DNA of 64,000 bases, from assembly GCF_035594765.1 (NCBI RefSeq), contig NW_026943819.1, forward strand, positions 17,720,703 to 17,784,702, read 5' to 3'. Every line of letters starts with the position of its first letter. Positions within the stretch are counted from its first letter, which is position 1. The notes under the pieces are model-generated. The model worked only from the letters and a program-made list of their open reading frames with translations. It did not search any database and was not told the DNA's origin. This stretch comes from Anolis carolinensis. Lineage: Eukaryota. Of this stretch, positions 2,297-60,973 are shown one piece after another. The position numbers were made by a program, and so were the translations under genes.

Positions 2297-2850
2297 TTGG
2301 GTTGCTGTGAGTTTTCCGGGCTGTCTGGCCATGTTCCAGAAGCATTCTCTCCTGACGTTTCACCCACATCTATGGTAGGCATCCTTTGAGGTTGTGAGGT
2401 GTTGGAAACTAGGCAAGTGGGGTTTATATATCTGTGGAATAATGTCTGGGGTGGGAGAAAGAACTCGTCTGTTCGAGGCAAGTGTGAATGTTGCAATTGG
2501 TCCGCTTGATTAGCACTGAAAAGCCTTGCAGCGTCAAAGCCTGGCTGCTTCCTGCCTGGGGGAATCCTTTGTTGGGCGGTGATAGCTGGCCCTGGTTGAT
2601 TCATGTCTGCAGTTCCCATTTTCTGAGTGTTGTTTTTTATTTACTGTCCTAATTTTAGAGTATTTTTTAATACTGGTAGCCAGATTTTGTTCATTTTCAT
2701 CGTTTCCTCCTTTCTGTTGAAATTGTCCACATCCTTGTAGATTTCAGTGGCTTCTAGGTAGTCTGACATGGTGCTTATCAGAGTGGTCCAGCATTTCAGT
2801 GTTTTCAAATAATATGCTGTGTCCAGATTTGTTCATCAAGTGCTCTGTTA
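2297..2850 (-). mobile_element. Degenerate Penelope 3' fragment
   Basis: Similar to 28751-29280; hammerhead core mutated. Confidence 0.85.
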
Positions 2851-3039
2851 TTCCTAACCGGTTGTTAGGAATTGTGGGAGTTGAAGTCCAAAACACCTGG
2901 AGGGCCGAAGTTTGCTCGTGCCTGCATCTAGTGGACGACTGAGGTGTTTTTGGACTTCAGCTCCCAGAAGCCCTGGTGATTAGCCAACGCAGCGGAGGCT
3001 TCTGGGAGTTGAAGTCCAAAACTCAAAGGAAGACAATCC

Positions 3040-3290: not shown

Positions 3291-3409
3291 GAGTGGTACG
3301 AACCTCCTCGGATTGAAGATGGAGCTTTCTTTTCTCCCTCCCACTCTCTTCCTTTCTTTCCCTCCTTTCTCTTTCTGTCTTTCCTTCCTCCCTTCCCCTC
3401 ATACACATG

Positions 3410-4616
3410 TCGCCTAGCAACAGCCAATCTGCTTCCCTCCCTTCCTTTTGTCAGTCATGTCACCCAAGGGCCACTTCACCCAGCCACAGCTAATCTGCTT
3501 CTCTCCCTTCCTTTTCCCAGTCATGTCACCCAGGAGACTCTTCATCTAGCAACAACCAATCTGCTCGTTTCCTATTCCTAGTCATGTCATCCAAGGGCCA
3601 CTTCACCTAGCAACAACCAATCTGCTTCTCTCCCTTATCCCAGTCATGTCACCCAAGGGCCACTTCACCTAGCTGCAAACAGTCTGTTTCTCTCCCTTCC
3701 TTATCCCACTCATGTCACCCAAGGGCCACTTCACCCAGCCACAGCTAATCTGCTTCTCTCCCTTCCTTTTCCCAGTCATGTCACCCAGGGGACTCTTCAT
3801 CTAGCAACAACCAATCTGCTCGTTTCCTATTCCTAGTCATGTCATCCAAGGGCCACTTCACCTAGCAACAACCAATCTGCTTCTCTCCCTTATCCCAGTC
3901 ATGTCACCCAAGGGCCACTTCACCTAGCTGCAAACAGTCTGTTTCTCTCCCTTCCTTATCCCACTCATGTCAGCCAAGGACCACTTCACCTAGCAACAGA
4001 CAATCTGTTTCTCTCCCTTCCTTATCCCACTCATGTCACCCACTTCACCTAGCAACAGACAATCTGTTTCTCGCACTTCCTTATCCTAGTCATGTCACCC
4101 AAGGGCCACTTCACCTAGCAACAGTGATCTGCTCCTTTCCTTATCCTAATCATGTCACCCAAGGGCCACTTCACCTAGCAACCGTGATCTGCTCCTTTCC
4201 TTATCCTAGTCATGTCACCTAAGGGCCACTTCACCTAGCAACAGTGATCTGCTCCTTTCCTTATCCTAATCATGTCACCCAAGGGCCACTTCACCTAGCA
4301 ACCGTGATCTGCTCCTTTCCTTATCCTAATCATGTCACCCAAGGGCCACTTCACCTAGCAACCGTGATCTGCTCCTTTCCTTATCCTAGTCATGTCACCT
4401 AAGGGCCACTTCACCTAGCAACAGTGATCTGCTCCTTTCCTTTTCCCAGTCATGTTACCCAAGGGCCACTTCACCTAGCAACAGTGATCTGCTCCTTTCC
4501 TTTTCCTAGTCATGTCACCCAAGGCCCACTTCACCCAGCCACAGCCAATCTGCTTCTCTCCCTTTTCCCAGTCACGTTACCCAAGGGCCACTTCACCTAG
4601 CCACAATCAATCTGTT
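3410..4616. repeat. Minisatellite, 60-66-bp unit, about 19-20 copies
   Basis: Unit AGTCATGTCACCCAAGGGCCACTTCACCTAGCAACAGTGATCTGCTCCTTTCCTTATCCT; exact 60-bp period at ~4080-4500; 255-bp higher-order repeat (3481 vs 3736). Confidence 0.95.
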
Positions 4617-5317
4617 TTGTCCCCCCCCTTCAATTCTGGATCCAAAAGGATTTCCTCACCGATTCTAGTTCGAACCCCTCAGTTATTTTAAGTTGAACCA
4701 TGTGCCTAGTTTGGTTGAGATCTATCAAGCCTTGCAGGAGCTTCTGTAGCACAAACAACCAACAACCACATACATATATACCTGGCCTGATAGATAGATA
4801 AATGTCTATTAAGTCTTCATTTGAATGCATGCTTGCCTTGCTGGAAGTCCCATCAAACTCCTTCTCCATTTCATAAAATTAGCCATGTTAGGGTCATCCC
4901 TCCCCCCGTCCCCCATCCCCAATCAAGATAATATAGTATTCTGGTTCCTTGAAGATTAAACAGATTTACTGTCATTATTGTATTAAAAGTAAGCAAGTAA
5001 GTAAAGTATTAAAAGGTTTCAGCCAATTTAGATCTGAATGCCAGGGCATTCAAACTAGCCCTATAGGCCATCTGGGAAATCAAGCTTTTTTGGATTCTGT
5101 AAAAATCCACAATATTATAGTTGGAAAAAATTGTGGCTGTCTTACTGTCCTGTACTGCATCGCCCATTGCGCTGCTGACTGGTGATGATGGAAGTTGCAA
5201 TCCAGCCACATCCAAAGTGCCAAAGGTTCTCCACCCCTAGTGTTGCGCTATGGGACACATTTATCTTCTGAGAACAACAGGTTGTATTGATGCTTCCCTT
5301 GGAAGTATGTGTATATA

Positions 5318-5450: not shown

Positions 5451-5754
5451 CAGTAGAGTCTCAACTTATCCAACATAAACGGGCCGGCAGAACGTTGGAT
5501 AAGCGAATATGTTGGATAATAAGGAGGGATTAAGGAATAGCCTATTAAACATCAAATTAGATTAAGATTTTACAAATTAAGCACCAAAACCTCATGTTAT
5601 ACAACAAATATAGAAAAAAAGTAGTTCAATACGCAGTAATGTTATGTTGTAATTACTGTATTTACGAATTTAGCACCAAAATATGATGTATTGAAAACAT
5701 TGGCTACAAAATGCGTTGGATAATCCAGAACGTTGGATAAGTGAGACTCTACTG
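5451..5754. mobile_element. Tc1/mariner (Tigger/pogo-like) MITE
   Basis: TIR CAGTAGAGTCTCA..TTATCC / GGATAAGTGAGACTCTACTG with TA TSD; four copies in the window. Confidence 0.88.
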
Positions 5755-5838: not shown

Positions 5839-6286
5839 AAAGGTAAAGGTTAACGTCAGGGGAAACCTTTACCTTTTTTTGAAGTATTTATACAATCTGA
5901 CAAGGAACGGGTTTAAAAATGCTTTGAAAAAGTAATTTTATCCCAGATACATATATATATATATATAGTCCAATAAATCTCAAAGTCTATCTCAAAGTCC
6001 AGTCGTGTCCGACTCTGGGGGTTGGTGCTCATCTCCATTTCTAAGTCAAAGAGCCGGCGTTGTCCATATACACCTCCAAGGTCATGTGGCCGGCATGACT
6101 GCATGAACCGCCGTTACATTCCCGCCAGAGCGGTACCTATTGATCTACTCACATTTGCATGTTTTCAAATTGCTAGGTTGGCAGGAGCTGGGGCTAACAG
6201 CGGGCGCTCATTCCGCTTCTGGGATTTGAACCTGGGACCTTTCGGTCCGCAACTTCAGCAGCTCAGCGCTTTAACACACTGTGCCC
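5839..6286 (-). mobile_element. Sauria SINE with rearranged 3' end
   Basis: tRNA-like head, (ACCTTT)n tail, TSD TATATACTTCAATAA at 5824-5838 and 6287-6301. Confidence 0.85.
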
Positions 6287-9449: not shown

Positions 9450-11807
9450 CTCTACACAATCTGTCCCAGTATCCCCCACTCCACCAAATTAGCTTGCTTT
9501 CTCATTTATGTTGCAAAATACTGCTCATCCTTTGTAAAAGTCGGGATTTAACTTCTAGTTCAGGTAGCCTCTGTGTGGTGGAATAGATATAGTCACCATT
9601 TTTTGCTTCAGGCTATCTCTATACAGATAGCTGCAAGGAGGCTTTATTAGGTTTCCATTCTAAAGAATCAGATTAGTGAGCTGTTTTGCAATGAAGGAAG
9701 CGGAGATTATATAGTGAAAGTCTTAGTCAGCCTAAACTGAAGATAGTCTTCCCCTTCCTTTGTTGGAAATAAGTAGCATTGAGCAATTGTGAACCTTTCA
9801 GAACCAGAGAAAGAAGAAAGAAATATACACATCATATAGTGATTCAGAACATGAACTGTGAGTTTAAAGGTTCAAAGCGCCCTTTGGGCAAGGAGGCCAC
9901 TTTGGAATAAGGCTTTACTGGGCTTAGTGGGCCTTTGTTTTGAGCTGTCATACACAACATTATGCTTTGAGTGACGTATCAATCCCAGCACTGCATGTTG
10001 CAAGAATATCTTATTTTGTCCCAGGAGTTATGGTAAAGAATTGTCTTAATTTGAGCTTTGTATTTCTGGGAACAGAGTCTTTGCAGTTTTCTACTATTTA
10101 CTTCCAGATATAAGTCAATGGTAGAAAATAATTATAATTATAATTATTATTATTTCAATCTAGGGATGGATACCTGTCAGAAATGGACTCTGACAGCCTT
10201 TTCATTTCCTTTTGTGGTTAAGGTTTATGTACCTAGACATCATAACATCCCTGTAATTGTTTGCACAGTTTAGACTCTTCTCGGGCATGTTCACTCTTCC
10301 TTGTGTCTTCTCCAGACCTTAAATTCTATTTCCTTTTTGGTATCACCAGAAGGTCATTATACAAACTATCTGCTTGCATCATTGATTTTAGTATAACTTC
10401 CTTTATTTGATTTGTTTCATGAAAATTAAAGCTACAAATTATTTCACGTTTCCATATTGTTTACCAGTGAGTTCCTTTTTTTGCATCGATCCACCTGTGA
10501 TAGAGCAAAGAGCCTATCCTAGTGCCGATTTTTTTTTTTTTTTTGCATATATCCGCCTGTGATAGAGCAAAGAGCCTATCCTAGCAGCTCAAAAACCTGG
10601 GTTGGAAGAGAAAGATTTGATCTCCTGTTCAACCAGGTCATCCCATTGGGTCACTTAAGAGGAAAGCAATGACAAACCTTCTCTGAATGATTTTCACCAA
10701 CAAAACTCTAGAATAATGTCACCGTTAAACAGAATCAAGGATATAATAATCTGTTTTGTGCCCCTGGTTCCCAGTGGTTAACTTTGTGGGACATTAGAAT
10801 TTCAAGGGATGAACCAAATGTTGACATGTACTATAATGGGGGGGGGGGTGCCTTCATAAAAGAAAAGGAGTTACACATTTGTACGGTCTGGTGAACCGTA
10901 CAATATTGGGAAAGCATCTGAGAATCTTGCAAAAACTCCAGGAAAAGATTGTTGCTTGTCAAGACAACAGGTCAAGCAGACTTTCTAGCATTAACCCTGG
11001 CTTCCTGCCACGCAAGTCGGTTTCCACCCAAATACACTTCCATCCAAATACAATCAGACCATTACTTAACTTGCCAGACCATCTCCAAAGACCTAATTGT
11101 TCCTTGGCAACGTTATGAGGAAGGGAAACTGCTCTATCCACTTAATGCCAGCCTCCTTTTGGAAATACGTTTCAGCCTATGGTTACTTGCAGATAGAGGT
11201 ATTTAGATGCAGAGTTTGAAGTAGTTAATTTTAAAGTACAGCTTCCAGAATTCCAACCCAGATTTATAACCCTAAACTCTGTTTGATCTAGATGAGCAAA
11301 AGTATCAGAGCCCGGGGACATTGTCCCTTTGGGATCCCTCTCCCAGCAAGCCTAAATACTTGTTTTCTTCTGCTGTCCTTCTCAAAAGCTTTTCTAGGTT
11401 GCAGGAGGGCATTTCTTGCAGTGGTTTAGGTGGAAAATAAAAGAAGCCGCTGTACTGTTGGCACACTCATTCAACCATTCTCGGGGCATATTTAGGGCAT
11501 GGAAGGGCTTTGGATCCCATGCCCTCAGAATGCCCTCTCTTTGCTCTTATTATTGTCAGAGTATTAGTGCAGAGCATAGCAGGAGGTGGAGGATTCTTTG
11601 CCTGCAAAGGGAAAAGAGTACATTCTTCCCTTTCTACAAAACTACAATATTGCAGCCTTGAAAACGGCAATAACGATGTTGTGAATTTAAAAAATCAAAA
11701 GAAAATGGGTTAGAATAACAATGTGTTGCCGAAGGCTTTCATGGCCAGGATCACAGGGTTGTTGTATGTTTTCCGGGCTGTATGGCCATGTTCCAGAAGT
11801 ATTCTTT

Positions 11808-11848
11808 CCTGACGTTTCGCCCACATCTATGGCAGGCATCCTCAGAGG
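11808..11848 (-). ncRNA. Minimal hammerhead ribozyme motif in Penelope fragment
   Basis: Reverse complement contains intact CTGAGGA...GAAACGTC. Confidence 0.75.
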
Positions 11849-12282
11849 TTGTGAGGTATGGAGAAACTAAGCAAGGAAGGTTTATATATATCTGTGGAAA
11901 GTCCAGGGTGAGAGAAGAACACTTGTCAGTTGGAGACCAGTGTGAATGTTGTAGTTAATCACCTAAATTAGCATTGAATAGCTTCATCTCTTGGCTTCTT
12001 CCTGCCTGGGGGCATCCTTTGTTTAGAGTCGTTACCTGCCCCTGGTTGATTCATGTCTGGAACTCCTCTGTTTTCAGAGTGTTGCTTCCTATTTACTGTT
12101 CTGATTTTTGAATTTTTTTAATATTGGTAGCCAGATTTTGTTCATTTTCATGGTTTCCTCCTTTCTGTTGAAGTTGTCCACATTGAAATCCACAAGCATG
12201 TGGACAGCTTCAACAGAAAGGAGGAAACCATGAAAATGAACAAAATCTGGCTCCCTTGCTTAGTTTCTCCATACCTCACATA

Positions 12283-12323
12283 CTTCTGAGGATGCCTGCC
12301 ATAGATGTGGGTGAAACGTCAGG
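12283..12323 (+). ncRNA. Minimal hammerhead ribozyme motif (sense to FAM118B pre-mRNA)
   Basis: CTT-CTGAGGA...GAAACGTC-AGG with intact cores. Confidence 0.7.
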
Positions 12324-12343
12324 AGAAAATACTTCTGGAACAT

Positions 12344-12677
12344 GCGCCCCTGGTGGTGGCGCAGTGTGTTAAAGCACCGAGCTGCTGAACTTGCAGACTG
12401 AAAGGTCCCAGGTTCAAATCCCGGGAGCGGAATGAGCGCCTGCTGTTAGCCCCAGCTCCTGCCAACCTAGCAGTTCGAAAACATGCAAATGTGAGTAGAT
12501 CAATAGGTACCGCTCTGGCGGGAAGGTAACGGCACTCCATGCAGTCATGCCGGCCACATGACCTTGGAGGTGTCTACAGACAACGCTGGCTCTTTGGCTT
12601 AGAAATGGAGATGAGCACCAACCCCCAGAGTCGGTCACGACTGGACTTAACGTCAGGGGAAACCTTTACCTTTACCT
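12344..12677 (+). mobile_element. Sauria SINE (full length)
   Basis: GGTGGCGCAGTG A box, GGTTCAAATCCC B box, ACCTTTACCTTTACCT tail. Confidence 0.9.
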
Positions 12678-13369
12678 ATGGCCATACAGCCCGGAAAACA
12701 TACAACAACCCGGTTAGAATAACAACCAGTAAAAAAGGATTTAAAACTTTATTCCTGGAACAGAATGCTCACTTGAATAAAACTAACTTGACGGCCTTTG
12801 TACCAAGTCAGAAGGTTCACGTGAGAGAAGGACAATCCCCGTGGAGCAATTTTGTAAGCTTTTTGAACTATTGCAAGCTAAAGAATGTCTCTAGCTGGTT
12901 CGTCAAGTTATTACGGCAGAAGAACAGAGGAAACATTTTCCTCAAAGAGACTTTCTTCCTTCTATGTTTATTTTTGTTGTTGAATGGTCTACTGACTAGA
13001 AAACTTCCTCCCCCTTCCCTGCTCCCATCTGTTGAGTCAAGGAGTCGGCAAAGACTGTCTGGGAAGCGTCTTGTTCTCACGCAACCCATTTCCCGTTCAC
13101 CGCTTCCTTGGAGAGCAGCCCATTCTCCTCTACTGCACAAGTTGGAGACTTAACTCTCTTGACTTCAGAATTAAGAGTGTCTTAGCAGCAGTAATCCTTG
13201 GCCAATAATAGCCTGTCTGCTCAGTGGCCGGTTGTGAAGAGGGCAAGAGTCTTGTCCTTTGGGCAACTATTCAGAAGGGGAGGGAAGGGGATTTGGCCAT
13301 GTGCGACTTATTATAGTCTTGGGCTGTATGGGCAGCAGAGTCACAGGATGGAATAGCACTCTGGTCACT

Positions 13370-15639: not shown

Positions 15640-20702
<5,063 letters not shown>

Positions 20703-27900: not shown

Positions 27901-30900
27901 AACTCAAGAAACCTTGGAGACACTTTTGTTCATTTTCAATTGATAGGAGAAAAATAAAACACATAGTAACAAGAAAATAAATCTATTAATCCAGGGCTGG
28001 GGCTTCCTCTCACTATCTCCATGGAATGACCCATAACTAGATCATGGATTGTCCGAGTCCCATTAGATTCACACTATCTATATCACCCACATGTAGGCCC
28101 TGTAAATACCTTGGCCAGATTGGTCGATTTCCCCACTCCATTGACACCGCAAAATGTGATGACGTAGGGCCGGCGGTGGCGCTGGGCATCCATCACATCA
28201 CGCAGGACATCCACGCGACGTTGGGGCTGTAGGATTTGCACCAGAGACTCCTGGAGGGCCTGCTTGACCGTTGAAGTCACCGCTGGGAAATTGGAAGCAA
28301 ACTGTGATCAAAGAAGTCAAATCTCTTCCTGCCATTCCAACATTAACAAGTTCTTTGTAGAGAGGCAGCTTTGTCTAAGCAGAGCAAGATGAAACCTCTG
28401 TAGAATAGGATACGTCCTGTTTAGTGAATAGGAAACCTTCTTCCCCTCTAGATAAGGCCTGATCTTCCGAACATCTTCATCCAGTCTTTGGTCCTAATTG
28501 TCACTTTGAAAGACTCGGGGATTTTACTACACTATCATTAACAAGCAGGACACATGACCAGGGTAGATTTTCAGTGATTTTTAGAGCTTCCACTATAAGC
28601 CATCTCAATTCTGGATTAGCATTGCCTTTAGCAGTAGTAGCAGTAGTAGTAGTAATAATAATAATGATGATGATGATGATGATAATAATAATGCGGGGGA
28701 AATTTCTTTGTACTCCAGAACTGTTTTTAGTAAATAAGTAATTTATTTATAGGGTTGTTGTATGTCTTTCGGGCTGTGTGGCCATGTTCCAGAAGCATTC
28801 TCTCCTGACGTTTCGCCCACATCTATGGCAGGCATCCTCAGAGGTTGTGAGGTATGGAGAAAACTAAGCAAAGAGGTTAATATATATCTGTGGAAAGTCT
28901 AGGGTGAGAGAGGTCAGTGTGAATGTGTAGTTAATCACTTAAATTAGCATTGAAAAGCTTATCTGCTGTCTTCTTCCTGCCTCTGGGGCATCCTTTGTTT
29001 AGAGTCGTTAACTGCCCTTGGTTGATTCATGTCTGGAAACCCTCTGTTTTCAGAGTATTGCTTTTTATTTACTGTTCTGATTTTTGAGTTTTGTAATACT
29101 GGTAGCCAGATTTTGTTCATTTTCATGGTTTCTTCCTTTCTGTTGAAGTTGTCCACATGCTTGTGGATTTCAATGGCTTCTCTGTGTAGTCTGACATGAT
29201 AGTTGTTAGAATGGTCCAGCATTTTTGTGTTCTCAAATAGTATTCTGTGTCCAGGCTGGTTCATCAAATGCTCTGCTATGGCTGATTTCTCTGGTTGAAT
29301 TAGTCTGCAGTGCCTTTCATGTTCTTTGACTCTTGTTTGGGCGCTGCGTTTGGTGGTCCCTATGTAGACTTGTCCACAGCTGCATGGTATCCGGTAGACT
29401 CCTGCAGAAGAGAGAGGATCCCTCTTGTCCTTCGCTGACCGTAGCATTTGTTGGATTTTCTTCGTGGGTTTGTAGATAGTTTGTAGGTTGTGCTTCTTCA
29501 TCAGCTTCCCTATGCGGTCAGTAGTTCCCTTGATGTATGGTAAGTACACCTTTCCTCTGGGTGGATCTTTGTCTTGACTCTCATGGCTTGTTCTTGGCCT
29601 TGCAGCTCTTCTGATGTCTGTGGTGGAGTATCCATTGGCCTGTAGAGCCCAGTTTAGGTGGTTGAGTTCACCTTGGAGGAGGTGAGGTTCGCAGATTCTT
29701 TGTGCACGGTCTGTCAGGGCTTTGATTGTGCTCCTTTTTTGACTTGGGTGATGGTTGGAGTTTTTATGAAGGTATCTATCTGTGTGTGTAGGTTTTCTGT
29801 AAACTGTGTGGCCCAATTGTTGATTGGGTTTGCGGATGACCAGAACATCTAGAAATGGCAGTTTTCCTTCCTTTTCTTTTTCCATGGTGAATTGGATGTT
29901 TGGGTGGATGCTGTTAAGATGGTCCAGGAACTTGCTGAGTTCTTCCTCTCCATGGCTCCAAATCGTGAAGGTGTCATCTACGTATCTGAACCAAACAGTT
30001 GGCTTTTTTGGTGCTGTTTCTAGGGCCTGTTTTTCAAAGTATTCCATATAGAAATTTGCTACTACTGGGCTGAGAGGGCTCCCCATGGCCACTCCATCCT
30101 TCTGTTCATAGAATCCAGTGTCCCACTGAAAGTAGCTAGTGGTGAGGCAATGGTGAAACAGGGCTGTGATGTCTTCTGGGAAGTTTTGTTTGATTAGTGT
30201 GAGGGTGTCAGCTACTGGGACTTTGGTAAAAAGGGACACCACATCAAAGCTGATCAGGATGTCCTTGGTGCTTAGATTGAGGTTGCTGATCTTTTCTATA
30301 AAGTGTGTAGAGTCCTTGATATAATGTGCAGTGAGCCCAATGTGGGTTTGTAGCTGTGTAGCCAGAAATTTTGCCAGGTTGTAAGTCGGCGATCCAATGG
30401 CACTTACAATGGGTCTGAGTGGGATGGCGTCCTTGTGGATTTTGGGGAGTCCGTAGAGCCTGGGTGGGAGGGCTTCTGATTTGCACAGCTGTTGGCGTAT
30501 GTCAAAGTTAATGGAGGAGTTCTTGATTAGAGTGTTCGTTTTTCTGGTGATTTTGTTGGTGGGGTCTTGTTTCAGTTTCTTGTAAATTTACTTACCATAC
30601 ATCAAGGGAACTACTGACCGCATAGGGAAGCTGATGAAGAAGCACAACCTACAAACTATCTACAAACCCACGAAGAAAATCCAACAAATGCTACGGTCAG
30701 CGAAGGACAAGAGGGATCCTCTCTCTTCTGCAGGAGTCTACCGGATACCATGCAGCTGTGGACAAGTCTACATAGGGACCACCAAACGCAGCGCCCAAAC
30801 AAGAGTCAAAGAACATGAAAGGCACTGCAGACTAATTCAACCAGAGAAATCAGCCATAGCAGAGCATTTGATGAACCAGCCTGGACACAGAATACTATTT

Positions 30901-33900
30901 GAGAACACAAAAATGCTGGACCATTCTAACAACTATCATGTCAGACTACACAGAGAAGCCATTGAAATCCACAAGCATGTGGACAACTTCAACAGAAAGG
31001 AAGAAACCATGAAAATGAACAAAATCTGGCTACCAGTATTACAAAACTCAAAAATCAGAACAGTAAATAAAAAGCAATACTCTGAAAACAGAGGGTTTCC
31101 AGACATGAATCAACCAAGGGCAGTTAACGACTCTAAACAAAGGATGCCCCAGAGGCAGGAAGAAGACAGCAGATAAGCTTTTCAATGCTAATTTAAGTGA
31201 TTAACTACACATTCACACTGACCTCTCTCACCCTAGACTTTCCACAGATATATATTAACCTCTTTGCTTAGTTTTCTCCATACCTCACAACCTCTGAGGA
31301 TGCCTGCCATAGATGTGGGCGAAACGTCAGGAGAGAATGCTTCTGGAACATGGCCACACAGCCCGAAAGACATACAACAACCCTGTGATCCCGGCCATGA
31401 AAGCCTTCGACAACACAATTTATTTATACTTCAGATCATATGGCATTAAGAGCAGGTTTACAATGTAAGAACACCAAATCAGGAAATCGACTCCCTATAA
31501 CAAATGCCTCTGTGTCGTGCGTATAACAGGAGTATTCCAAGTGTGGCTTTTGGGTCAAGTTCAGTCCCATCCATGTTGTGCATTTCTATGCAAGGGTTCA
31601 GTGCAGTGTGGAATCCATGAGAGTTCTGCACTTATCTCTAAGGGAAGTAACACTGCCAACCTGGAAGTGACTAATCCGGATAGAGGTTCAGGTATTCAAA
31701 ATGAAATGACACTTACTAGTAAAAGTGCCCATCACTTTGCCTTCCAACTTCTTTGCAACGGATTCACACAGTTGAACAGCAATCTCAGCAGCTACATTCT
31801 TAGCTTGGGAAAGAGGAAACAAATCCCAGAACAATGAGTTAAGATTGCAAAGCCCATCATGTATCCATCTGAATAATTATTCTATGTGCACCAATATAAC
31901 TATCATGTTAATTCTAACATCTTATCCATCCTTCAACAAGGACAAATAGTATTTTAACCTCATAAGGACTGGTTTGGCACAGGTAGGGGAAAGGAAGATG
32001 CAAAGGGAGGTGCATTTATTTCAAAACATATATAATCTCATTATTCTGTAACAGGTTTTATGTTGCATAAAGTTCTAGTTTACAAATAAGTATATAACTT
32101 TTAAAAAACCTTATATGTACACATATATATGTACTCAACCATGAAAGCCTACTGGGAAACCTTGACTACGTCACACTTATCAAAAAAAAAAGAAAGAAAG
32201 AAAGAAAGAAATCTTACCAAGAATATCCTAAAGAGACTGTCATAAATTGGAGTGCACTTCAAGGTACATAACTTCAACAACAATAAAAGCCAGAACCAGC
32301 CTCAGTATGTATTTTTAGATAACTGATTAGCTAGAATATTACAGGGCATCCTGTGTTCCAAAAATAGGATAAGCAATTTCAAAGCTATTTCAAACAAGCT
32401 ATTAGGCACAATGTCAATCTTGCTGCTAGGCATAATCTACTATCTGCCCTTTTTATATTCCTCCAAAAACTTAGGAACTACGCTCACTAGAGGGTTTTCC
32501 CCTTGACCCTTTTTCATAAACTGTTAGAATCAATGGGAAACTCTTAGGATCAATTGCCACCCTATAAGGCCCCAGGACTAGCCAACATAAATCCTTACCA
32601 ATCAGGTGATCCTTCATCTTTTCCAGTACTGGGTCCATGTCCTCTTTGGCCAAGCTTTTAGAGCCCACGAGGCCCTTTAGCATCCCAAACATGCCCCCAA
32701 GACCACCTTTCTTGGCACTAGAAACAGGAAAAGACGGGTAGGTAGCACATTTTTTTCTGCACAGAACACCACATGCGTGTTTTAACAGAACAAGACCTGA
32801 ATTTCAAAGCATCTCTCATTAGTCCAAGATTCTTCTTGTTAGTTTCTTAACACTTAAAACCCATTTTTTAAACAATTTTCCAAATGTGCTTTCCAGCCCT
32901 ACACAAAGCATGAATCATTTTCTGCTTGTATACCTATACCTAACACAATACAACTGCTGAATGGCAAACAAAGAGGAGGGACTCAATACACTCCTTCCAT
33001 GGTTGCTGCTCCCTGACAACAAAACATGAGTCCTGGAAAATATAACTACTAATTTCTTTCTCACAAAAAGCAACTTACGCACAGGGATACAGAATGGAAG
33101 CTTCACCTTGTGCTTGAGGAGCTTTGAACCACCTTCTCTTCTTCCATCTCCTCTTCACTCTCACATTCAATTTCACGAAGAAGACCAGGCTCATGGTTGC
33201 GATCCCTGACAAGCTGAATTGGATAACAAGAAGACCAAGAAGCAGCACAAGTTACAGTCAGCTTCTTTATCATGAAAACAGTAAACAGTGTTGGGACATT
33301 TAAGAATGATGCCTTCATCAGGGAGCTTTCATGTGCTCCAGCCCACTTCATTCAACACCTGAGATATTATTCCCAGATCTACCCACACAAAGAAGGAAAA
33401 TAATGCCAAGTGTTATGAATACTTTACCATTTCTGCATCAAAATCCTCCATGGGGCAAGTGTCTGCATTTCCATTGGAAGTAGAGTTGCTATAATCAAGT
33501 ACTTTGGCATTTGAGTTCCCCAGATCCCATACTCTGGGTTTCTTCCCCTTATCCTTCTGAGCATCTGGCTTTGGGGACTTGCTAAGGAAGACAGAAGAGA
33601 AACTCCATTAAAACTCAGCTGCCGCGGGAAATAGCAGAAGTCATTTGTAGTGGTCAACCTGAAACTTTGCCGAGGCAAAGTTAACCACACAAATTTATGT
33701 TCTGGATTTTCATTTCCTTATCTTATCAACCCAATTATAAGATAGCTGAGCACCCTGGGCCTTCAAAGTCCTCCCCTCACGCTACAAATGCAGTGAGAAC
33801 CCAGCTATGTTTGAATCCATAACACTGCATTAAGGTTGGATCATAAGGAAAATTAAAATGTATCTACAGAGATGCAACCCCTTAGGCTCAGTATCTCTGG

Positions 33901-38599: not shown

Positions 38600-39745
38600 G
38601 GTGGCGGAGGAGAGAGGGGCTCCGGGCCCCGCGGGAAAGGGCGAGAGCAGGCCGAGGCGCCGGGGAACCAGCCCGACTGCCTGACCCACGTCAGGTTAGG
38701 TCCTAAACTCGGCCTCACTTCCGCCGGAAGCGGCTTCCCTTTTTCAGTGGGCGGGGCTACGTCGAGCAGCGACATCCCGATTGGACCGGACACTTCAAAG
38801 GGCGGGGCGAGGTTGAGAAGAGAGAGCTCTGATTGGGCCTTGGACGTCCTGAGGAGAGAGAACGCGAAGTGGGTTTAGTGCTGACGTAAACACAGGCGGC
38901 ATAGCCACGTCAGAGGAGCCTCTAGTTCGTCTCACTTCCGCCGGAAACCAGGTTGAGTTTCCTTAGATATCAGGAACGATTTGTCGCTTAACTAATGGAC
39001 TTCATCTCCCAGAATCCCTTGTCATTGGCCAAGGCAGCTGAGGCTCCTGGGAATTGATGTCCAAATGCCTGTAAGACTAGAATTTGCGGGAGGAGTAATA
39101 CAGTAGAGTCTAACTTATCCAACGCATTTTTGTAGTCAATGTTTTCAATACATCATGATATTTTGGTGCTAAATTCGTAAATACAGTAATTACTACATAG
39201 CATTACTGCGTATTGAACTACTTTTTCTGTCAAATTTGTTGTATAACATGATGTTTTGGTGCTTAATTTGTAAAATCATAACCTAATTTGATGTTTAATA
39301 GGCTTTTCCTTAATCCCTCCTTATTATCCAACATATTCGCTTATCCAACGTTCTGCCGGCCCGTTTATGTTGGATAAGTGAGACTCTACTGTAATAGAAA
39401 GGCTTGAAAGTGGCAGTGCCCACCGCGCGTGCGCAGAGAGATAGAAGTTCAGTGAAGGGGAGGGAGGGCTACGCTCATTGGCTGTCTCCCCAAAGCATTG
39501 CGATATGATTGGAATTTTATTTCAGGGCTTACGGCGACGCTGATTGGTCCTCCGATAAGGCGCGTGCCGGAAAACGCGATGCCGGATTGGTCAACGGGAT
39601 TGAGAGCGGACCCGTCCAATGAAAACGCGGCAAGGATAGAGGGGAGGTCTCGAGGAGGATAAAATGGCCGCCCCGCGAGAGGGTGTGTATCTTCTGTCCG
39701 CGCGTGCGCTGTGTGGCTCGAGCCCGGGAAGAGGAAAGAGGCGGC
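38600..39745. promoter_or_regulatory. Divergent SRPRA/FOXRED1 promoter region (CpG-rich, split by a MITE)
   Basis: Head-to-head ATGs at 38599 (-) and 39746 (+). SRPRA side: CCACGTCA (UPRE/CRE-like) at 38686 and 38905, CTTCCGCCGGAA ETS pairs at ~38718 and ~38935, GC boxes, ATTGG. FOXRED1 side: NRF1-like GCGCGTGCGC at 39425 and 39700, several ATTGG/CCAAT boxes, YY1-like AAAATGGC at 39661. Confidence 0.8.
39101..39391. mobile_element. Tigger/pogo-like MITE in the SRPRA/FOXRED1 intergenic promoter
   Basis: Same TIRs, TA TSD, opposite orientation. Confidence 0.88.
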
Positions 39746-42700
39746 ATGTTCGGCGGGCGGACAGCGCTGCTATTGCGGGGGCTGCGGCCCTGGCTGAGGG
39801 TGGAACCCCGAAGGCACCGCGACTCCTTCAGAGGTGGGCCTGGCTGGCTGGCAGGGAGGGCGCCCTCCCGGAGATTAGTCGCTTTTATTATTCACTAGCT
39901 TGGGTACCCAGCGTTGCCCGGGTTATTTGAAAAAGGCAGTGTTTTAATCGTTCAAAATGCATAAACTTGTGGATTAACTGCAACTAACCTCATGCCAGGT
40001 TAACCTCGAGAAAATCCATCAGTACTTAAAGTTTGTTATGTTGGCAAGATTGCTCTGGAAACATCATCGGTAGGGTTCGGTGTGTGCTCTGGCTGAAGGG
40101 TAAACTACATCTCCCACTATGGTGAGTCAGTCCCCGCAAACCCCTCCAGTAGGTTGAGTGAGTCATGGGGGTTCTGTGTGCCAAGTTTGGTTCAGGTCCA
40201 TAGTTGGTGGAGGTCACAGTTTCCCTGGTTGTGGGTGAACTACAACTCCCAGAAAGGAAGGTCAATCCCACCCAAACCCCTCCAGTAATCAAATTTGAAC
40301 ATATTGGATATATGTTCCACATTTAATTCAGACCCATCGGTGTTTGGGTTCACAGTGCTTTCAGGATCTGCTTTGAACCAGGTTATTTGAGTCCACAGTG
40401 CCATATATTCCAGTTCAATGCAGGTAATGCATTTAACTGGAATATGGAATTCAGCTGTGTGGAAGGGGTCTCTGAAATTTATTCAGAGGTCTGTTGGCAA
40501 AAGTCCTCTGAGCAACCTCTGAGGAAGCTTGCCACAGATGCAGGCGTAACATTAGGCGAAAATGCAACTGGAACATAGCCATACAGCTCGAAAACCTCAA
40601 TGCAACTCAGTGATTCTGGCCATGAAAGCCTTTGACAACAGTATTAGAGAATGCGTACCAAGACAAATTCTACTATCACTTCTAGGCCTTTTGGGTAAGA
40701 TCAAGTGTAGTATCTATCATATCAATAGAGGTTAAAATGCAAGTAAGATAGTATGAAGCAATCAAAAACATGATCTTGTGTTCAAAGGTTTTGTTCTGAT
40801 GGAACTCGGCATGTTTAGACAGCAGAATGTTGTGCAATGAACCAGAGCATGAAATCCAAGGTGAATAATTACAAATAAATTCAATTAAAGAGCCCAGATT
40901 GTGGCAAAAGCTTTAGTCCTGTTGCCTGGAACTGTGGTGATAGGTCACACTTTGATGAGGTTCTTCCAAAGTTGCTCATATGTTGGTTGGGACAATTCAG
41001 ACCTCTGCTGAAAGGGCAAGTTGCACTGGCACTCAATCTCTTTTCTCCTTTATTTCTATCCTCCTATGTTCTCATAACTGGTACTCAATTTGTTTGGAAA
41101 ATATAAAGATCAAAGTGCATATTAGTAAAGCATAAAAGAGATTGCTAAAATATAAAGACATGACATAATCAAAAACAGTGAAATTATCTGTTGCAAATGC
41201 ATAAAGTGATGTTAACTTGATGTGTAAAATTGGAGTAGAAGGAAATCCAAGTGTAACAAATGTTCATAATTACTTCACCTTCTCAGATGGGTTTCTACCT
41301 ATAGATAAGTTCAAGCTAATGATTAATGTTGCTTGAATGTATTATTACAGGAGTGGGCAAAGAGTACCTCTTCCAAGACTGCTTTTGTTTCCATCTGACC
41401 CTTGGAACCACCCTTTTCTGACACGGTTAAAGGGTGAATTGCTGTCTTCTGAAAGCCTTCAGGAATGTATTGCATGTACTAATGAGACATAAAAATCTCC
41501 TTTCAAACCCTAGACCAGTGGTTCTCAACCTGTGGGTCCCCAGATGTTTTGGCTTTCAGCTCCCAGAAATCCTAACAGCTGGTAAATAGGCTGGACAGTT
41601 CGGGTCCAGGCTATTTGGCTGACTACATTCCCTTCTATGAACCTGCCCATGGCTTAAGATCTTCAGAAGAGGCCTTTCTCTCAGTCCTACCTCCATCTCA
41701 AGCTCAGTTGGTGGGAATGAGAGAGGGGACCTTTTTGGTGGCTGCCTCTCAATTCTGGAACTCTCTGCCCAGGGAAGCCAGAAAGGCCCCCTCTTTCAGT
41801 CTTTGGTCATCAAAACCAGGAGTGACTTTCCTGACTATTTAAAATTATTGTTTTTAAACTGGTTTTAAGAAGTTAGGTTAGTCTGTTTTTAGATGTTTGT
41901 CCAAATATTTTCTGTAAATGCATCACTGAAGACGTTTAAATGACTGTTAGTCTCTCTTTCCAGATTTCACTAAGGAATTTGACAAGTTCCGTCAGAAGGC
42001 GAAGGGGATCCTTCCTGGCAGTGACTGGACTCCTTTGCCTATATCAAGAGACCTGCCTCCTGAGCAGGCTGACGTGGTCATCGTTGGAGGAGGTGTAGTG
42101 GGATGGTCAGTTGCCTATTGGTTGAAGAGGAATGAGCCCCAGAGTGGTGCCGTTCGAGTAGTGGTGGTTGAACGGGACCTCAGTGTGAGTTGTCTGAGCT
42201 CTGCAAGGGTGCGTGTTGATTTAGGCCAATCTTTCAATCATTTAATTCTGGTGTAATCATTGAATTCGTCGTTTAATTTTAACCTTCGGATGTTAATTTC
42301 TTACTGTTGAATCTTAACACTTGATGGATCTCCCCCCCCCCCCAATAGGTGATGCTTTTGGGGGGTTTGCCAAGATTATGTGTTAGAGTCATGTGTTCAT
42401 CAGACTAGGCCATGAATACCTGTCTGGAAATGCCTGTTCACCTACTATATAATAAAGAGTCTTGGGACACCTGAAAATCTTAACAAATTATACATGTTTG
42501 TAAATAAAAACTTGTTAAGGCTTCAGGATATCACCAGAGTCCTTTCCCTAATGGCAGCAATTGAGCATATTCAATAAATATATTGAAACTTTTGGGTGAC
42601 TTGGAGCCATTTATTGTGATCCATCAAACATTAGGGAAGCATATTTAACTGTACGATAAGTGACACTCCTTTTTCTCTCTTTTTTATTACAGTATGCGAA

Positions 42701-45700
42701 AGCATCCACAGTACTCTCTGTTGGGGGGATACGGCAGCAGTATTCAATGCCAGAAAATATCCAGATGAGCCTGTTCTCAGCAAACTTCTTGCGTTTAATT
42801 GACGTATGTCATGCTAACTAGGTTTTCCTGGGATTGCTGGAGCTGAAGGACTTACAGTAGAGTCTCATTTATCCAACATAAACGGGCCGGCAGAATGTTG
42901 GATAAGTAAATATGTTGGATAATAAGGAGAAATTAAGAAAAAGCCTATTAAACATCAAAATAGGTTATGATTTTACAAATTAAGCACCAAAACATCATGT
43001 TATACAACAAATCTGACATAAAAAGTAGTTCATTAAACATTAATGCTATGTAGTAATTACTGTATTTATGAATTTAGCACCAAAATATCATGATATATTG
43101 AAAACATTGACTACAAAAATGCGTTGGATAATCCAGAACGTTGGATAAGTGAGTGTTGGATAAGTGAGACTCTACTGTATATTTTTGCTGTTTGCCTGCC
43201 TCTGTTGTTTCTGACTGTCCATGGAACAGCCAAATGGGCTGGCACATCACTTCAGAGAACATATAGCAGTGAATGCTTATAGATCCTTAGATGTCAAGAA
43301 TACAGTGGTGGCATACCCGAATATATGATTAATTTGTAATTCCTGAGCTGTACATGCTTTTATTTGCCATCAGGTAGATTTGTTGCTAAAGCTCTGCACT
43401 GTGAGAAGTTTTGCCATGTGCTCCATTGCATCTGTTTTAGACATTCAGATGTTCTGAGAGCTGCATGAATATAAAAGTTATGTTGAGAGGCATCCGAATA
43501 TCAAGTTTAGCATCATATCTATTAACGTGGTATCCTAGTTTCTTTTAAATTCAGTTTTAAGACTGTTGTAGGATTTACAAAAGTTCAAGTAGATAGCAAC
43601 TTTAGCCTGTATGTGTTTATGGTAAAAGTTAGAAATGTAGTTTTTGTATTTACTTACATGCTGTTGGGAATTTTATTCACACTTCAGGATCTCCAAAATT
43701 TTCTCCTTGTAGCCATAAGAATGGTTTCATTTGCTCATTGTCTTATATTAATTATCCAGTCCTTGTTACCCTTCTGTATTTATTTAATTTATGTCCTACC
43801 TTTTCCCCAAAATGAAATCCATGGTATAGTGGCCAAAGTGAGTATTGGTGAATGTCCACCTGTTCTAGAATTTTCCACTGAATACTGTGTTGTTTATTGA
43901 GTTAACAGGCCTAGATTGTTCACATAGTGATATATGAAGCAGGTTAGGTCTCGAGAAGTTACTGTTCTCTCAGTCTTGTAATAATATTATAATTATTTTT
44001 ATGCCCCGCCTCCATCTCCCCGAAGGGACTCGGAGCGGCTTACATGGGCTCAAGCCCAGATAAAAACAGTAACAATGTAAAACACATCAAATGACGAAAG
44101 ATGTGCAGTTATAAAATTTAAACATTAACATATACAGATAAAATAGCAAACGTTAATAAGACATGATTGAAACACAGAAAAGTTGTTAAAAACGGACTGG
44201 GTAAGGTGCACTGTATGAATTTTAAGCATGAGGTAGCTGAAAAAGTCCTGCAGATTCGTGAGAGGGCAACTTGGGATGGGAATAACCTTGTGGCTATATC
44301 AAATCTATAATATGGAGCTCTCAATAAAGGCTTATTAATACATTGGAAAGTTAAATGCACTACCTTTTGGTTCCAGGAGTATCTACATGTTATTGGTCAG
44401 CCACCGGTAGATGTTCAGTTTAATCCTTCTGGCTATCTTTTCCTGGCGTCAGATGAAACAGCTGCAATCCTGGAGGAGAATGTGAAAGTTCAAAGGTATG
44501 GAAACATTGGATACGAAGGACGTTGAGGAGAAAAGAAGGCAGTGCCCTAGGTGTTAGCATGCCTGAGATCATGGGCAATATCATTATTTTCCTTCTTATG
44601 TTTGACCTTAAATCAACTGTAGCTCTCTGCTTCCCCAGTAGAGAGTGCTTCCTGGTGTGCAAGATCCAAGTTCTGTTTCCATTTTCTTCCTAGGGGTGGG
44701 CTGCTTTGTAAAGCTAATAAGGTTGTTATGAAAATAACTTGGAAAGGAAAGCCATGAATGTATGGGCTGATTGGATGTATTAAAATATTTATTGTTGGGA
44801 ATCGGATTCCATTCTTGCTGATTTTAGTCCGTTTGCGTCATGCTTCCACTTTGGAAAAGTAATGTGATGGATCTCCTGCCCCACAGCTCCAATCCTTGAG
44901 CCACCTTCACTCACCTTCCCCCCCCCCCCCCCCGAAAATCCCTTTCTGGCCTCAGGGCAATTGCTGTATGGACCAGTAGATGTATTAACCAGTGGGTTCA
45001 TTGTGGTAAGCTTGACTAGTTTCTTAAAAAAATTAACAGGAAGAGCTGGGTGCAGTTGTAAAAAGAAACAGACAAGTAAGCAAATAGAGAAGTAGAAGTT
45101 TATTAATACAAAATTAAATTTTATATTAACCCCTGAACTATTTAATCTTTTACAGCTCCCCCCAAATCCTGTTTATATTTTTCCTCACAGCTAAGTATCC
45201 TATTTTAGGACATCTTTCGCCATCTCTGCAATCTTTCCCTTTTTCTTTGTCGTTTTCCCCCTGCCTTCTGTGAGAAACAAGCCATCATGAACGCAACATC
45301 CCTTCCCCATCTTCCTTAATTGGAGCAACTGTTTAGCTGATTGTTGTTTTGATTAACCAATTTTTTTGGTTTTACAAGATTCTAGCCAATTGCATTTTAA
45401 TAAGAATCCTTTAATGGTTTTTCAGGATGGAAGGAGCAAAGGTGTCTCTGCTTTCACCAGCAGAACTGAAAAAGAAATATCCATGGATGAATACAGATGG
45501 TGTGGTGTTGGCTTCCTGTGGTACTGGACTCTGTTTAATTTAACACGTAACATCAACATCTTGAGTAAAGAGTTAGAGGGGGAATGATAACATGTTTTTT
45601 CCCTATGCAAGTTAAAGTGAATAGCTATGAAAGTTTGAATATTAATAGTGATGTGTGTGAAGTTTAAACTGCACTCTTTCGTAGATATACAGTATTACAC

Positions 45701-54013: not shown

Positions 54014-57000
54014 TCAGCTGCTTTTTGTTTTCACTTTCTTCGCCTGAACCTTGGCTTTTGTGGGAGCTTCAGGCCGCTTCCGGTTGACACCTAAAAGGGA
54101 AGGAAAAAAACTTTCAAAACACTTGTTGGTGCAGGGTTGTTGTATGTTTTCCGGGCTGTATGGCCATGTTCCAGAAGTATTCTCTCCTGACGTTTTGGCC
54201 ACATCTATGGCAGGCATCCTCAGAGGTTGTGAGGTACTGAATGTACAGGCTGACTTATCATTACTGTCATTACCTTCTGAGAAAAGGGTAATTTTACAAA
54301 TTACATTTTACAAATTCAAACTGGAGACTGTTTTCTTTTATCACCTTCAGAGTTTGTGGCTTTATCCTGGTTGTGCAATTCCGATGCTTGAAAATTTAGT
54401 TCCAGAACTCTGAAAAATGGGATCACAGAGATTCCTTCAACTGTCTTTTATTTTAAAACATTTCTGAATTTTTCCAGGCTGTGCTTTGGACAAGCAGAAA
54501 CTGAGAACACAGTAATTCCCAGCACAGATTAGTTACACCTGTGCAACATGCAAGATCTCGGAGTAATAGAACTAATCTAATTTAAAGATTGAAGTCTGGC
54601 TGATGACATCACATTGCAATAGAGCAGTGATTCTCAACCTGTGGGTCCACAGATGCTTTAGCCTCAATGTCCAGAAATCCTACCCGTTGGTAAACTGGCT
54701 GGTGTTTCTGGGAGTTGTAGGCCAAAAATACCTGGGGACTCCAGGTTGAGAACTACTGCAATAGAGGCTGGTGCTATGTGTCTTACTCTTGGCCTGCCCC
54801 TTCCCCTTTGGCCTCTACAAGGAGCTGAACATTGTGCTGCACTTCTGGACTGAGTGTGGTTGTCTTCTGTCTCTTCCTTGGACAGAAATGAGCACAGGTG
54901 GCATTTTTATCTCTTTGTCACAAGACATTATTCAGCCTCTTCTATCAGTAGGACTGCTCTGCAGTGACTCACATTAACATGTGGAGCAGGACCTTTGGAA
55001 GATAACTAAATCATTTTTTTTCGTTTAAAGTATATATAGTATATAAAAATATACCTCCAGCTGATTTTAAAACAAGGGGTGAAAAGTATGATGCTTCTCA
55101 ACCTGAATCATCTGTGTTTTGTCTTCTATCAGCCAAATGTTGACAAAGCTGAACAGCAAAGCCAATCTATTCTACATGGTCAGTGCTGGCCCTAACTTTC
55201 ATTCCGGACATGAGCTGAGGGTCATAAGGGCATTGAAGTCTGAAAACTGCCTCTTAACCTTTTTTCTGGCTGACTTTATCCTTTGCTTGGATAACCAGGT
55301 TTGGTGACCGCCGTGCATATGCTGCTTTCATCCGTTCCAGATTCCTCTTGTAGACTTTTTCATGCTCAACAATGGGCTTAGGATAGTCTTGGCCAATGAT
55401 GCAGCCGGCACGTTCCTGCAGGCTCCTTGGCGCTTTCCACGGCTCATATATATAGTCATTGGGGAACTTCCGCAAGAAGGGGAGATACTTCCTGTGCAAA
55501 GGGAGAAATCAGAGGAAAGAGCTTGTGACTAAAGGAAATGCCACACTATCAGATCATCTGCACAGACCCAGCTGAATATTTCCCTTGTTATCTTAAATAC
55601 TAATAGTTGGCAATTTTGAGAGCATGCAATATCTGAGCTCCAGGGACAGAGCCTAAAATTCCACAAGATATAATACCTTGTTTGGAACCAACACAGGGAT
55701 TTTTGGTGTACAGCAATATAAAAAAATATTCTAATTAAAACAGTTTTATTTATTTCTCAGTACATCTCAGTTGGTTCTGCTCTGCTCATATGCCCCTCAA
55801 GACAGATAAAAAGTTGCATGTACCTGGCCCACTTTTACCCTCACTTTTATGTATTCTTACTTTATATACTCTCCATTTTTGTCAGTTTTTTTGCCAAAGG
55901 TGACTGGTGAGTAGACCCGGAAGAACTGGTGGAAAAAGGCACTTGCCGAAAGCCACTGCCAGTTGGCAGCATTCAAGGACCAATCTGCATCCAGCAACAG
56001 TTCTTCAAAGACCTAAAATAGGACAGTTTGGAAAACTTAATATCTCTGGGGATGGGTAGGATTGTACAAATGTTAATGGAGCATCAGTTTTCCCACCACT
56101 GAGCCACTTCGCCTCCCTCAAAAAAAATTTCAAAGCTGTTTTTGGGGCGACCTGATCCACACACTGCTCATTATTTTCCTGGCCAATTGCGTTGGCAATT
56201 AAAGCAGCTTTCCCATGCTCATAGATAGGATTCAGAGCTCTAGAGCTCACATGATGGTATCCAGCTTGCTTTTTACCTTTTGACCTTCCTCCCATGATAT
56301 CCAGAGGTCTCCCCGTGTCAGGAAACAAGCCACAGCGTGCCGTGCTAAATGATGGATCCAGCCTTCTGTGCGCAGCTGTGTCATGATGGCATCTATAAAA
56401 GGGTAGCCAGTCTGACCCTGCCAGCAAGAAGGGAGTTAAAGCTCAGGGATGTGAGTAGTGGTTTTAGGTTATACTTTCCAGTTCTTTAAGCAACATCTAG
56501 CAATTACTACATAGTAAAGAGTAATGTGTTTAGCCTGCTGGAAAAGAAGGGAATCAGCCACTCCATAAATGTTTATGCATGTTTTCTGTTATATCCATGT
56601 TACGAAGCATAACAAACCTCACGCCATGCTCTCAGGTACTCCTGGTTATTGTCCCAATCCACTTGCACACAAACCGGATTGTTCTCCATTCGGTCAAAGT
56701 TGGGGATCCCTGCTCCTGCCGTGTAGAAAAACTCTCGCCACAGAAGCTGCCCATGTAAAGAGACTGGGGGGTCTGAGTGTTTCCTCTAGAGAAGTGTAGC
56801 GGAGAAAGACTGGTTATTTTTGCTTCTGTTATTTCAGAGAGTTAAGGAAAAAGCACAATTGCACAGTATACTCGAGTTGTATAAAGTCATACAAGGTTGT
56901 GGCCCAGTCCAGGAAGACCATACGATTCTACTGGTCAGGTAACACAATTGTCAATTTGTATTTTTAAAATTAAGTACAGTTCCAAGGTTTAACCTGTTCA

Positions 57001-60646: not shown

Positions 60647-60805
60647 CCTAAGACCAACTTAACTTCCCCTTTGTAATGGAAGATCTGCCTAGAAAAAGGG
60701 GAAAAAGTTGTAGACAGAAACGTTGTATGTACTGTAAACTCTCAGATGAGAACCCCCAGAAACCAGCAAAAAAGGCAAAGAAATAATACTTTCCTGGAGC
60801 CTCCA

Positions 60806-60973
60806 TAGATATATAAACCTCTTTTGCCTAGTTTCCAACAGACCTCACAACCTCTGAGGATGCCTGCCACAGATGTCGGCGAAAAATCAAGAGAGAATGC
60901 TTTTGGAACATGGCCACACAGCCAGGAAACACAGCAACCCAGTGTTTCCGGCCATGAAAGCCTTCGACAACAC
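60806..60973 (+). mobile_element. Penelope pLTR fragment in photolyase intron 1
   Basis: Matches 31245-31416 with substitutions. Confidence 0.8.

What the first reader, a model, noticed from the sequence alone, without database searches (positions are those of the whole stretch)
28740..31428. Very young Penelope/Poseidon insertion: open RT-GIY-YIG frame, 796-bp inverted repeat, 12-bp TSD, palindromic junction
Seen: no stops across ~541 codons; arms 28751-29546 and 30589-31384 look identical wherever I compared them (identical 180-aa translation); the junction is the palindrome GTAAATTTAC (30582-30591); only the right arm carries the ~32-nt tail GTGATCCCGGCCATGAAAGCCTTCGACAACAC; TSD AATTTATTTATA. 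Established: Penelope-like elements have telomerase-related RT, GIY-YIG endonuclease and sometimes inverted pLTRs. Inference: a recently or currently active family, and this copy records a two-ended priming mechanism.
Basis: partly seen in the sequence, partly recalled or inferred. Interest (0 to 1): 0.7.

Follow-up and report, generated by a model that had tools for sequence, protein, structure and literature searches.

The report
Young inverted Poseidon retrotransposon insertion
This is a recent, truncated copy of a known lizard jumping gene sitting in an intron; its mirror-image arms are the family's normal insertion form, and 81 of 81 scorable sister insertions start the two arms at two different fixed sites, which likely means both cut DNA ends are extended from one source RNA.

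Summary
In detail: arms identical at 796/796 nt, 12-bp TSD, 542-codon open frame, tail on the right arm only. The element is a 5'-truncated copy (codons 305-846 of 846) of Poseidon_Ac/PAc, the anole Penelope-like element already studied in vitro (PMC11167929). It lies in an intron of a likely SRPRA gene, is identical over 1,837 nt to an intact copy elsewhere, and is likely absent from at least one allele in 4 of 4 other samples. Inverted arms, a one-sided tail and TSDs are in print. The junction palindrome is likely chance: 1 of 40 other spaced junctions has one as long. Genome-wide sampling adds a strict rule. In 81 of 81 scorable tail-blind inverted insertions, one arm ends at +117 and the other at +84, which fits the two in-vitro RT start sites. 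Arms share source variants (66 of 67 sites), are truncated independently, and meet through microhomology or templated inserts. This supports two-ended priming from one source template over simple fold-back. Ordinary locus of a known family; modest, testable gain on an open mechanism.

The parts
28740..28751 (.). Left target-site duplication (12 bp, AT-rich)
28752..30588 (-). Long, untailed arm: element positions about -1752 to +84 (A of the pLTR ATG = +1); 5'-truncated Poseidon copy
28959..30587 (-). Open frame of 542 aa, equal to residues 305-846 of the intact ORF: RT core, then GIY-YIG endonuclease with CCHH; no start codon
28801..28845 (-). Hammerhead ribozyme motif of the left arm (mirror of 31290-31334), in the sense of the host pre-mRNA
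   Evidence: arm identity; motif by inspection against PMC11167929; no Rfam hit
29547..30588 (-). Spacer between the inverted repeats: the RT part present only in the long arm (1,042 nt)
30582..30591 (.). 10-nt palindrome beside the blunt arm-arm junction 30588|30589; likely coincidental; junction unique in the genome
30589..31416 (+). Short, tailed arm: element positions about -710 to +117; endonuclease fragment, pLTR and tail
31290..31334 (+). Hammerhead ribozyme motif spanning the pLTR ATG at 31300
   Evidence: stem II folds; sequence matches the PAc template of PMC11167929 by eye
31385..31416 (+). Tail (+86 to +117; +85 ambiguous), the stretch between the two RT start sites reported for PAc
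31417..31428 (.). Right target-site duplication
28283..31716 (-). Host intron of a likely SRPRA gene (SRP receptor alpha) holding the insertion; about 757 nt without it
   Evidence: exon translations and splice sites; Pfam SRP54 and weak SRP54_N hits in neighbouring exons; gene name from recalled motifs

Best explanation
This is a young, 5'-truncated copy of the anole Penelope-like retrotransposon Poseidon_Ac (PAc), likely made by two-ended target-primed reverse transcription. Shown: the two arms end at +84 and +117, are flanked by a 12-bp TSD, and meet at a junction found nowhere else in the genome. Inferred steps: the RT-endonuclease particle would nick both strands about 12 nt apart. Each 3' end would prime a cDNA on the same source template, one from the +84 start site and one from the +117 start site. 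The two cDNAs would stop independently, here after about 1,837 and 828 nt. Host end-joining would fuse their 3' ends, and fill-in would give the inverted arms and the TSD. The palindrome is likely incidental.
For: (1) Identity: window 31177-31416 matches the PAc template printed in PMC11167929 apart from one substitution and one 3-nt gap (by eye). (2) In vitro PAc nicks and extends both strands, starts RT at two sites that bound the tail, and is predicted to be a dimer. (3) One tail per inverted insertion in 38 of 38 scorable cases (40 found) and 43 of 43 (45 found) in two tail-blind samples. Single-arm insertions use either end about equally (18 tailed/20 untailed/1 other; 7/7), so independent choice would give half TT or NN; p about 8e-25. 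(4) Untailed single arms can carry their own TSD (L111, L171, L172), so +84 can be a primary start. (5) The untailed arm is the longer one in 29 of 48, the tailed in 16, within 20 nt in 3; lengths are uncorrelated (rho 0.16, p 0.27). A copy of an untailed arm cannot gain a tail, and a fold-back copy cannot outrun its template. (6) Arms share their source: 66 of 67 recurrent-variant sites concordant, 16 variants shared only within one insertion, 25 differences in 38,566 sites against 0.37% for permuted arms; 43 of 43 concordant at +40 in older copies. (7) Junctions look end-joined: 22 of 44 carry inserts, many copying adjacent sequence; 11 of 21 insert-free spaced junctions have 2 or more nt of microhomology against about 14% in random joins. 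(8) The one TT case (L115) has no TSD and about 36-40 nt of inverted host flank, as DNA fold-back would leave.
Against: No intermediate was observed; all mechanistic evidence is from end products. [quoted passage not shown] Arm identity could also come from fold-back or from gene conversion after insertion. Many short copies have both arms cut at nearly the same 5' point, which fold-back also predicts. A base matching the template follows the tailed end (A in 27 of 30) but not the untailed end (T in 12 of 30, background 0.39). Samples are the first hits on contigs C1 and C2, not random draws. A complex locus (L054) with possibly tail-less pairs and a split pair (L045) fell outside my filter.
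Confidence: 0.72

Rival explanations
1. Self-priming or fold-back: one cDNA folds back and copies itself (or an antisense template self-primes), the endonuclease trims one end to remove the tail, and an asymmetric central deletion later creates the spacer.
For: Proposed in PMC3846280 from junction palindromes, with endonuclease resolution of the tail suggested in PMC8557442. It explains arm identity, one tail per insertion, and short copies with coincident 5' ends.
Against: It needs a second deletion in at least 29 of 48 long insertions, where the untailed arm is the longer one. Near-symmetric long copies are not enriched (2 of 48 within 12 nt, 0.54 expected, p 0.098). Palindromes are rare at spaced junctions. 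Untailed single-arm insertions with TSDs exist. RT starts at both sites in vitro. The one fold-back-like case is TT without a TSD.
Confidence: 0.18
2. Two-ended priming from two separate RNA molecules (or two pLTRs of one tandem transcript) of the same source locus, with arm identity helped by later gene conversion.
For: It fits independent truncation and end-joined junctions. Tandem intact loci exist (L109, L113, L122, L123, L137/138). It is a sub-case of the best explanation and cannot be separated from it with genomic data.
Against: It does not by itself explain why the two ends never use the same start site (0 of 81). RNAs drawn from the family pool would mismatch at variant sites, seen at 1 of 67.
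Confidence: 0.25
3. The inverted structure was inherited from an already inverted source copy, or is an assembly artefact.
For: Perfect 796-bp inverted repeats are hard to assemble, and no read spanning the whole insertion was examined.
Against: The 28-nt junction occurs once in the genome with up to 1 mismatch. An exact 12-bp TSD and the family-typical +84/+117 ends are present. Other insertions have their own junctions.
Confidence: 0.03

Closest known systems
Poseidon_Ac / PAc of Anolis carolinensis (Frangieh et al. 2024, PMC11167929)
   Same: pLTR, hammerhead, ATG and tail match the printed template by eye (one substitution and one 3-nt gap in 240 nt). The tailed end at +117 lies in the reported 111-118 start window. 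The target is AT-rich.
   Different: This copy lacks the first 304 codons and is inverted. The paper's main text does not treat inverted copies, TSDs or pairing of the two start sites; its supplementary figures were readable only as labels and its GenBank file not at all.
Inverted-pLTR Penelope insertions (Adineta vaga Pen2a, PMC3846280; general scheme in PMC8557442 Fig. 2)
   Same: An inverted 5'-truncated copy beside the main copy, a 30-40 nt tail at one end only, a short TSD, and sometimes junction palindromes.
   Different: There the tail is called optional or 'often' one-sided and self-priming is favoured. Here one-sidedness holds in 81 of 81 scorable cases and palindromes are not a rule.
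L1 twin priming (recalled; seen here only as search listings)
   Same: Both target nicks prime cDNA, and the two cDNAs join through microhomology to give an inversion with a TSD.
   Different: In L1 the second primer anneals upstream on the RNA, so the two pieces do not overlap, and there is a poly(A) end. Here both arms copy the same 796 nt from two fixed starts 33 nt apart, and there is no poly(A).

Membership tests
Penelope/Poseidon PLE | RT domain in a single ORF | tested here: met
   Pfam RVT_1, E 1.2e-13, YVDD motif
Penelope/Poseidon PLE | C-terminal GIY-YIG endonuclease with the CCHH motif, two Cys between GIY and YIG (PMC8557442) | tested here: met
   [15 protein letters not shown] and a downstream H..H by inspection of the translation; Pfam gave no GIY-YIG hit
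Penelope/Poseidon PLE | No CX2-5CxxC linker finger (present in Neptune and Nematis) | tested here: met
   Only one Cys between the RT core and GVY (criterion)
Penelope/Poseidon PLE | DKG motif upstream of RT | tested here: met
   Present in intact sister copies L109 and L110; lost from the window copy by truncation
Penelope/Poseidon PLE | pLTR with a 30-40 nt tail; tandem or inverted arrangement | tested here: met
Penelope/Poseidon PLE | Hammerhead ribozyme in the pLTR | tested here: inconclusive
   Core motifs and stem II present and matching PAc by eye; Rfam found nothing at E up to 1
Penelope/Poseidon PLE | RT groups with telomerase RTs in a tree | not tested
   No tree built; taken from PMC8557442
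Poseidon_Ac (PAc) family | Near identity to the Repbase consensus | tested here: met
   By-eye match over 240 nt of the printed template; the full consensus file could not be read
Autonomous (source) copy | Full ORF with start codon and upstream pLTR | tested here: not met
   Residues 1-304 are missing
L1-type twin-priming inversion | Non-overlapping inverted segment and poly(A) end (recalled definition) | tested here: not met
   Arms overlap by 796 nt; no poly(A)
DNA transposon or MITE with terminal inverted repeats | Fixed symmetric TIRs, no RT | tested here: not met
   Ends differ (+84 and +117), arm lengths vary from copy to copy, RT is encoded

The most novel reading that the evidence does not exclude
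A PAc dimer copies one RNA molecule twice. Its two RT sites load 33 nt apart at +84 and +117, each primed by one of two staggered target nicks, and the trailing RT displaces the first cDNA. The tail then marks the spacing of the two subunits, and inverted pLTRs are the default product of Penelope integration.
Probability: 0.4. Interest if true: 0.65.

Novelty: already known. Interest (0 to 1): 0.36.

Why it matters
The locus is one of many: the young endonuclease-region 51-mer has 456 exact matches and the tail 5,157. How Penelope-like elements form inverted pLTRs and one-sided tails is stated as open in PMC8557442 and PMC11167929. The strict pairing of +84 and +117 ends, shared source variants and independent truncation turn that into a direct experiment in an existing in-vitro system. 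Locally, the insertion likely segregates, lengthens an intron of a likely SRPRA gene from about 757 to 3,434 nt, and would put a 796-bp perfect duplex in the pre-mRNA; no effect was tested.

Tried and rejected
Junction palindrome as a mechanistic mark: rejected. Of 41 spaced young junctions only the window's (10 nt) and L128 (14 nt, inside an insert) reach 10 nt. In the earlier set the two other long ones were (TA)n inserts. The chance for one junction is about 0.008, but it was picked after the fact. Leading/trailing rule (untailed arm always longer): rejected as a rule, 29 against 16, p 0.07. Excess of coincident 5' ends in long copies: not significant. Primer-template match at the untailed end: not seen. 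A DNA search of the genome with the pLTR found nothing because common words are skipped, so patterns were used. Laying contigs on the left flank was uninformative because repeats were skipped. Rfam: no hit. Pfam GIY-YIG: no hit. Earlier scan findings: none. PMC522041 was not held. Six junctions failed anchoring and 20 of 50 insertions lacked exact end motifs; they were left out of the counts.

Full report
Observation. The arms are complementary at 796 of 796 nt with a 1,042-nt spacer. The 12-bp TSD occurs only at the two ends within the window. The minus frame 28959-30587 is open for 542 codons and hits Pfam RVT_1 at E 1.2e-13; a GVY..CSC..YIG endonuclease motif follows, by inspection. The tail is on the right arm only and the 10-nt palindrome is exact.

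Identity. I read parts 1-3 of 4 of Frangieh et al. 2024 (PMC11167929). Its printed PAc template matches window 31177-31416 by eye apart from one substitution and one 3-nt gap. With the pLTR ATG (31300) as +1, the right arm ends at +117, inside the reported RT start window of 111-118. The left arm ends at +84, at the other edge of the tail, which the paper equates with the second start site. The exact position of that second site is in a figure I could not see; supplements 1 and 2 gave only labels, supplement 3 was not opened and the GenBank file is unreadable here. The host is therefore likely an Anolis lizard (inference; the genome is 1.85 Gb). The insertion lies in the intron 28283-31716 of a minus-strand gene whose exons hit SRP54 and weakly SRP54_N, likely SRPRA (name from recalled motifs).

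State and age. Seven exact matches exist for a 35-mer at the long arm's 5' end, one being the window. Three of the five other loci hold an intact 846-aa ORF in 2,664-nt tandem units, and the window frame is residues 305-846 of it. The long arm differs from these five loci by 0, 1, 1, 1 and 4 nt in 1,837. So this copy is dead on arrival, but the family is very young and has intact members. In 4 of 4 public runs from four studies, the contig covering the right flank fits from exactly 31417 and has 27-75 further letters that do not fit the tail (table 8). Seventy-five letters leftward of an empty site would end in the microsatellite near 28665. I infer an empty allele; I did not see those letters, the table is cut, one run is flagged as a possible source of the assembly, and the left-flank test was uninformative.

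Junction. The 28-nt junction occurs once in the genome with up to one mismatch, so it was likely made at insertion. Comparison with longer copies shows a blunt join at 30588|30589 with element sequence on both sides, and the palindrome is centred 2 nt away. Random blunt joins give a palindrome of 10 nt or more within 4 nt in 0.8% of cases. Among 41 spaced young junctions, only the window and L128 reach 10 nt. It is not a family trait. Instead 22 of 44 mapped junctions (6 of 50 failed anchoring) carry inserts, often copies of adjacent sequence, and 11 of 21 insert-free spaced junctions show 2-5 nt of microhomology against about 14% expected. That is the pattern of microhomology-mediated end joining (established knowledge; the enzyme was not tested).

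Family census. I fetched 70 regions around the first 100 of 11,820 matches of a pLTR 32-mer and 60 regions around the first 100 of 456 matches of an endonuclease-region 51-mer. Both motifs are blind to the tail. Inverted insertions had one tailed and one untailed end in 38 of 38 scorable cases (2 more unclear) and 43 of 43 (L137 and L138 are one insertion; 2 more unclear). Single-arm insertions were 18 tailed, 20 untailed and 1 other, and 7 and 7, so independent choice would give about half TT or NN. Among five insertions from regions picked by the tail, four were one-tailed and one (L115) two-tailed; L115 has no TSD and about 36-40 nt of inverted host flank. L054 (complex, possibly tail-less pairs) and L045 (split pair) were outside the filter. 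TSDs were found for 49 of 50 inverted insertions, 44 of them 12-14 nt as raw repeats, which can include 1-2 element bases.

Arms come from one source but stop independently. Over 48 insertions the arms differ at 25 of 38,566 shared sites (0.065%) against 0.37% when arms are permuted (0 of 300 permutations as low). Recurrent variants agree at 66 of 67 sites, and 16 variants are shared by both arms of one insertion only. Older short copies agree at +40 in 43 of 43, which may partly reflect age waves. The window copy itself carries no informative variant. The untailed arm is longer in 29, the tailed in 16, and they are within 20 nt in 3; lengths do not correlate.

Mechanism. Shown: end positions, TSD, unique junctions, variant sharing and independent lengths. 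From the paper: PAc nicks and extends both strands, has two start sites and is predicted to be a dimer. Inferred: staggered nicks about 12 nt apart leave two 3' ends, each primes a cDNA on one source template at a different start site, and the two cDNAs are end-joined. In the window copy neither arm can be a simple copy of the other, because the short arm has a tail that the long arm lacks and the long arm has 1,042 nt that the short arm lacks. Fold-back with later central deletion remains possible (0.18). One RNA copied twice cannot be told from two RNAs of one locus or from gene conversion. That PLE RTs lack RNase H, which would allow re-copying, is recalled and was not tested.

What is known. 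[quoted passage not shown] PMC8969392 lists these as curation features. PMC9977147 and the retrozyme preprint 10.64898/2026.07.22.740005 added nothing on this point (passages). Five literature searches showed no paper stating strict +84/+117 pairing or a two-ended model for PLE inversions. The library lacks most subscription papers, including the older Penelope work (Evgen'ev and Arkhipova 2005 and Arkhipova 2006 not read), so such a model may be in print.

Verdict. A real, ordinary insertion of a known and already reconstituted family. The palindrome is likely noise. The family-wide pairing rule is a modest new constraint that makes an open mechanistic question directly testable. Interest 0.36.

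Noticed in passing
L072:3098-3113: The insert between the two arms is vertebrate telomeric repeat (TTAGGG, about 2.3 units) continuing an arm end that reads GGTT; possibly telomerase addition to a cDNA end.
   Followed up: no
L115:2950-3260: The only two-tailed inverted insertion; it has no TSD and about 36-40 nt of host flank duplicated in inverted form, as a DNA fold-back would give.
   Followed up: partly
L039-L108, many short copies: Many short arms are cut at about -17 to -21 before the ATG (not counted), which may mark the RNA's 5' end or a pLTR transcription start.
   Followed up: no
30 young inverted insertions: The base after the tailed end is A in 27 of 30 (background 0.38): either the element ends at +118 or there is 1 nt of primer pairing or target preference. 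No such bias at the untailed end.
   Followed up: partly
L068, L124, L130, L167 junctions: Junction inserts are tandem copies of the adjacent arm end, suggesting RT slippage or templated end-joining.
   Followed up: partly
L122, L123, L137+L138, L144: Multi-unit loci with full 2,664-nt tandem units on one or both sides of the inversion; they still obey the one-tail rule. Their ORFs were not checked.
   Followed up: partly
window 2299-2851, 11723-12344, 40513-40640, 54132-54236, 60802-60973, 61802-62660: Six older, diverged Poseidon pieces in the same window, two with inverted arrangements.
   Followed up: partly
window 3372-4630: Tandem arrays of 60-nt and 59-66-nt units; not identified.
   Followed up: no
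window 5464-5688, 17155-17454, 39115-39394, 42852-43152; 5994-6285, 12358-12678, 63199-63433: Two further interspersed repeat families at 89-95% identity; not identified.
   Followed up: no
window 28617-28692: A compound trinucleotide microsatellite lies about 50 nt left of the insertion; short-read contigs break there.
   Followed up: partly
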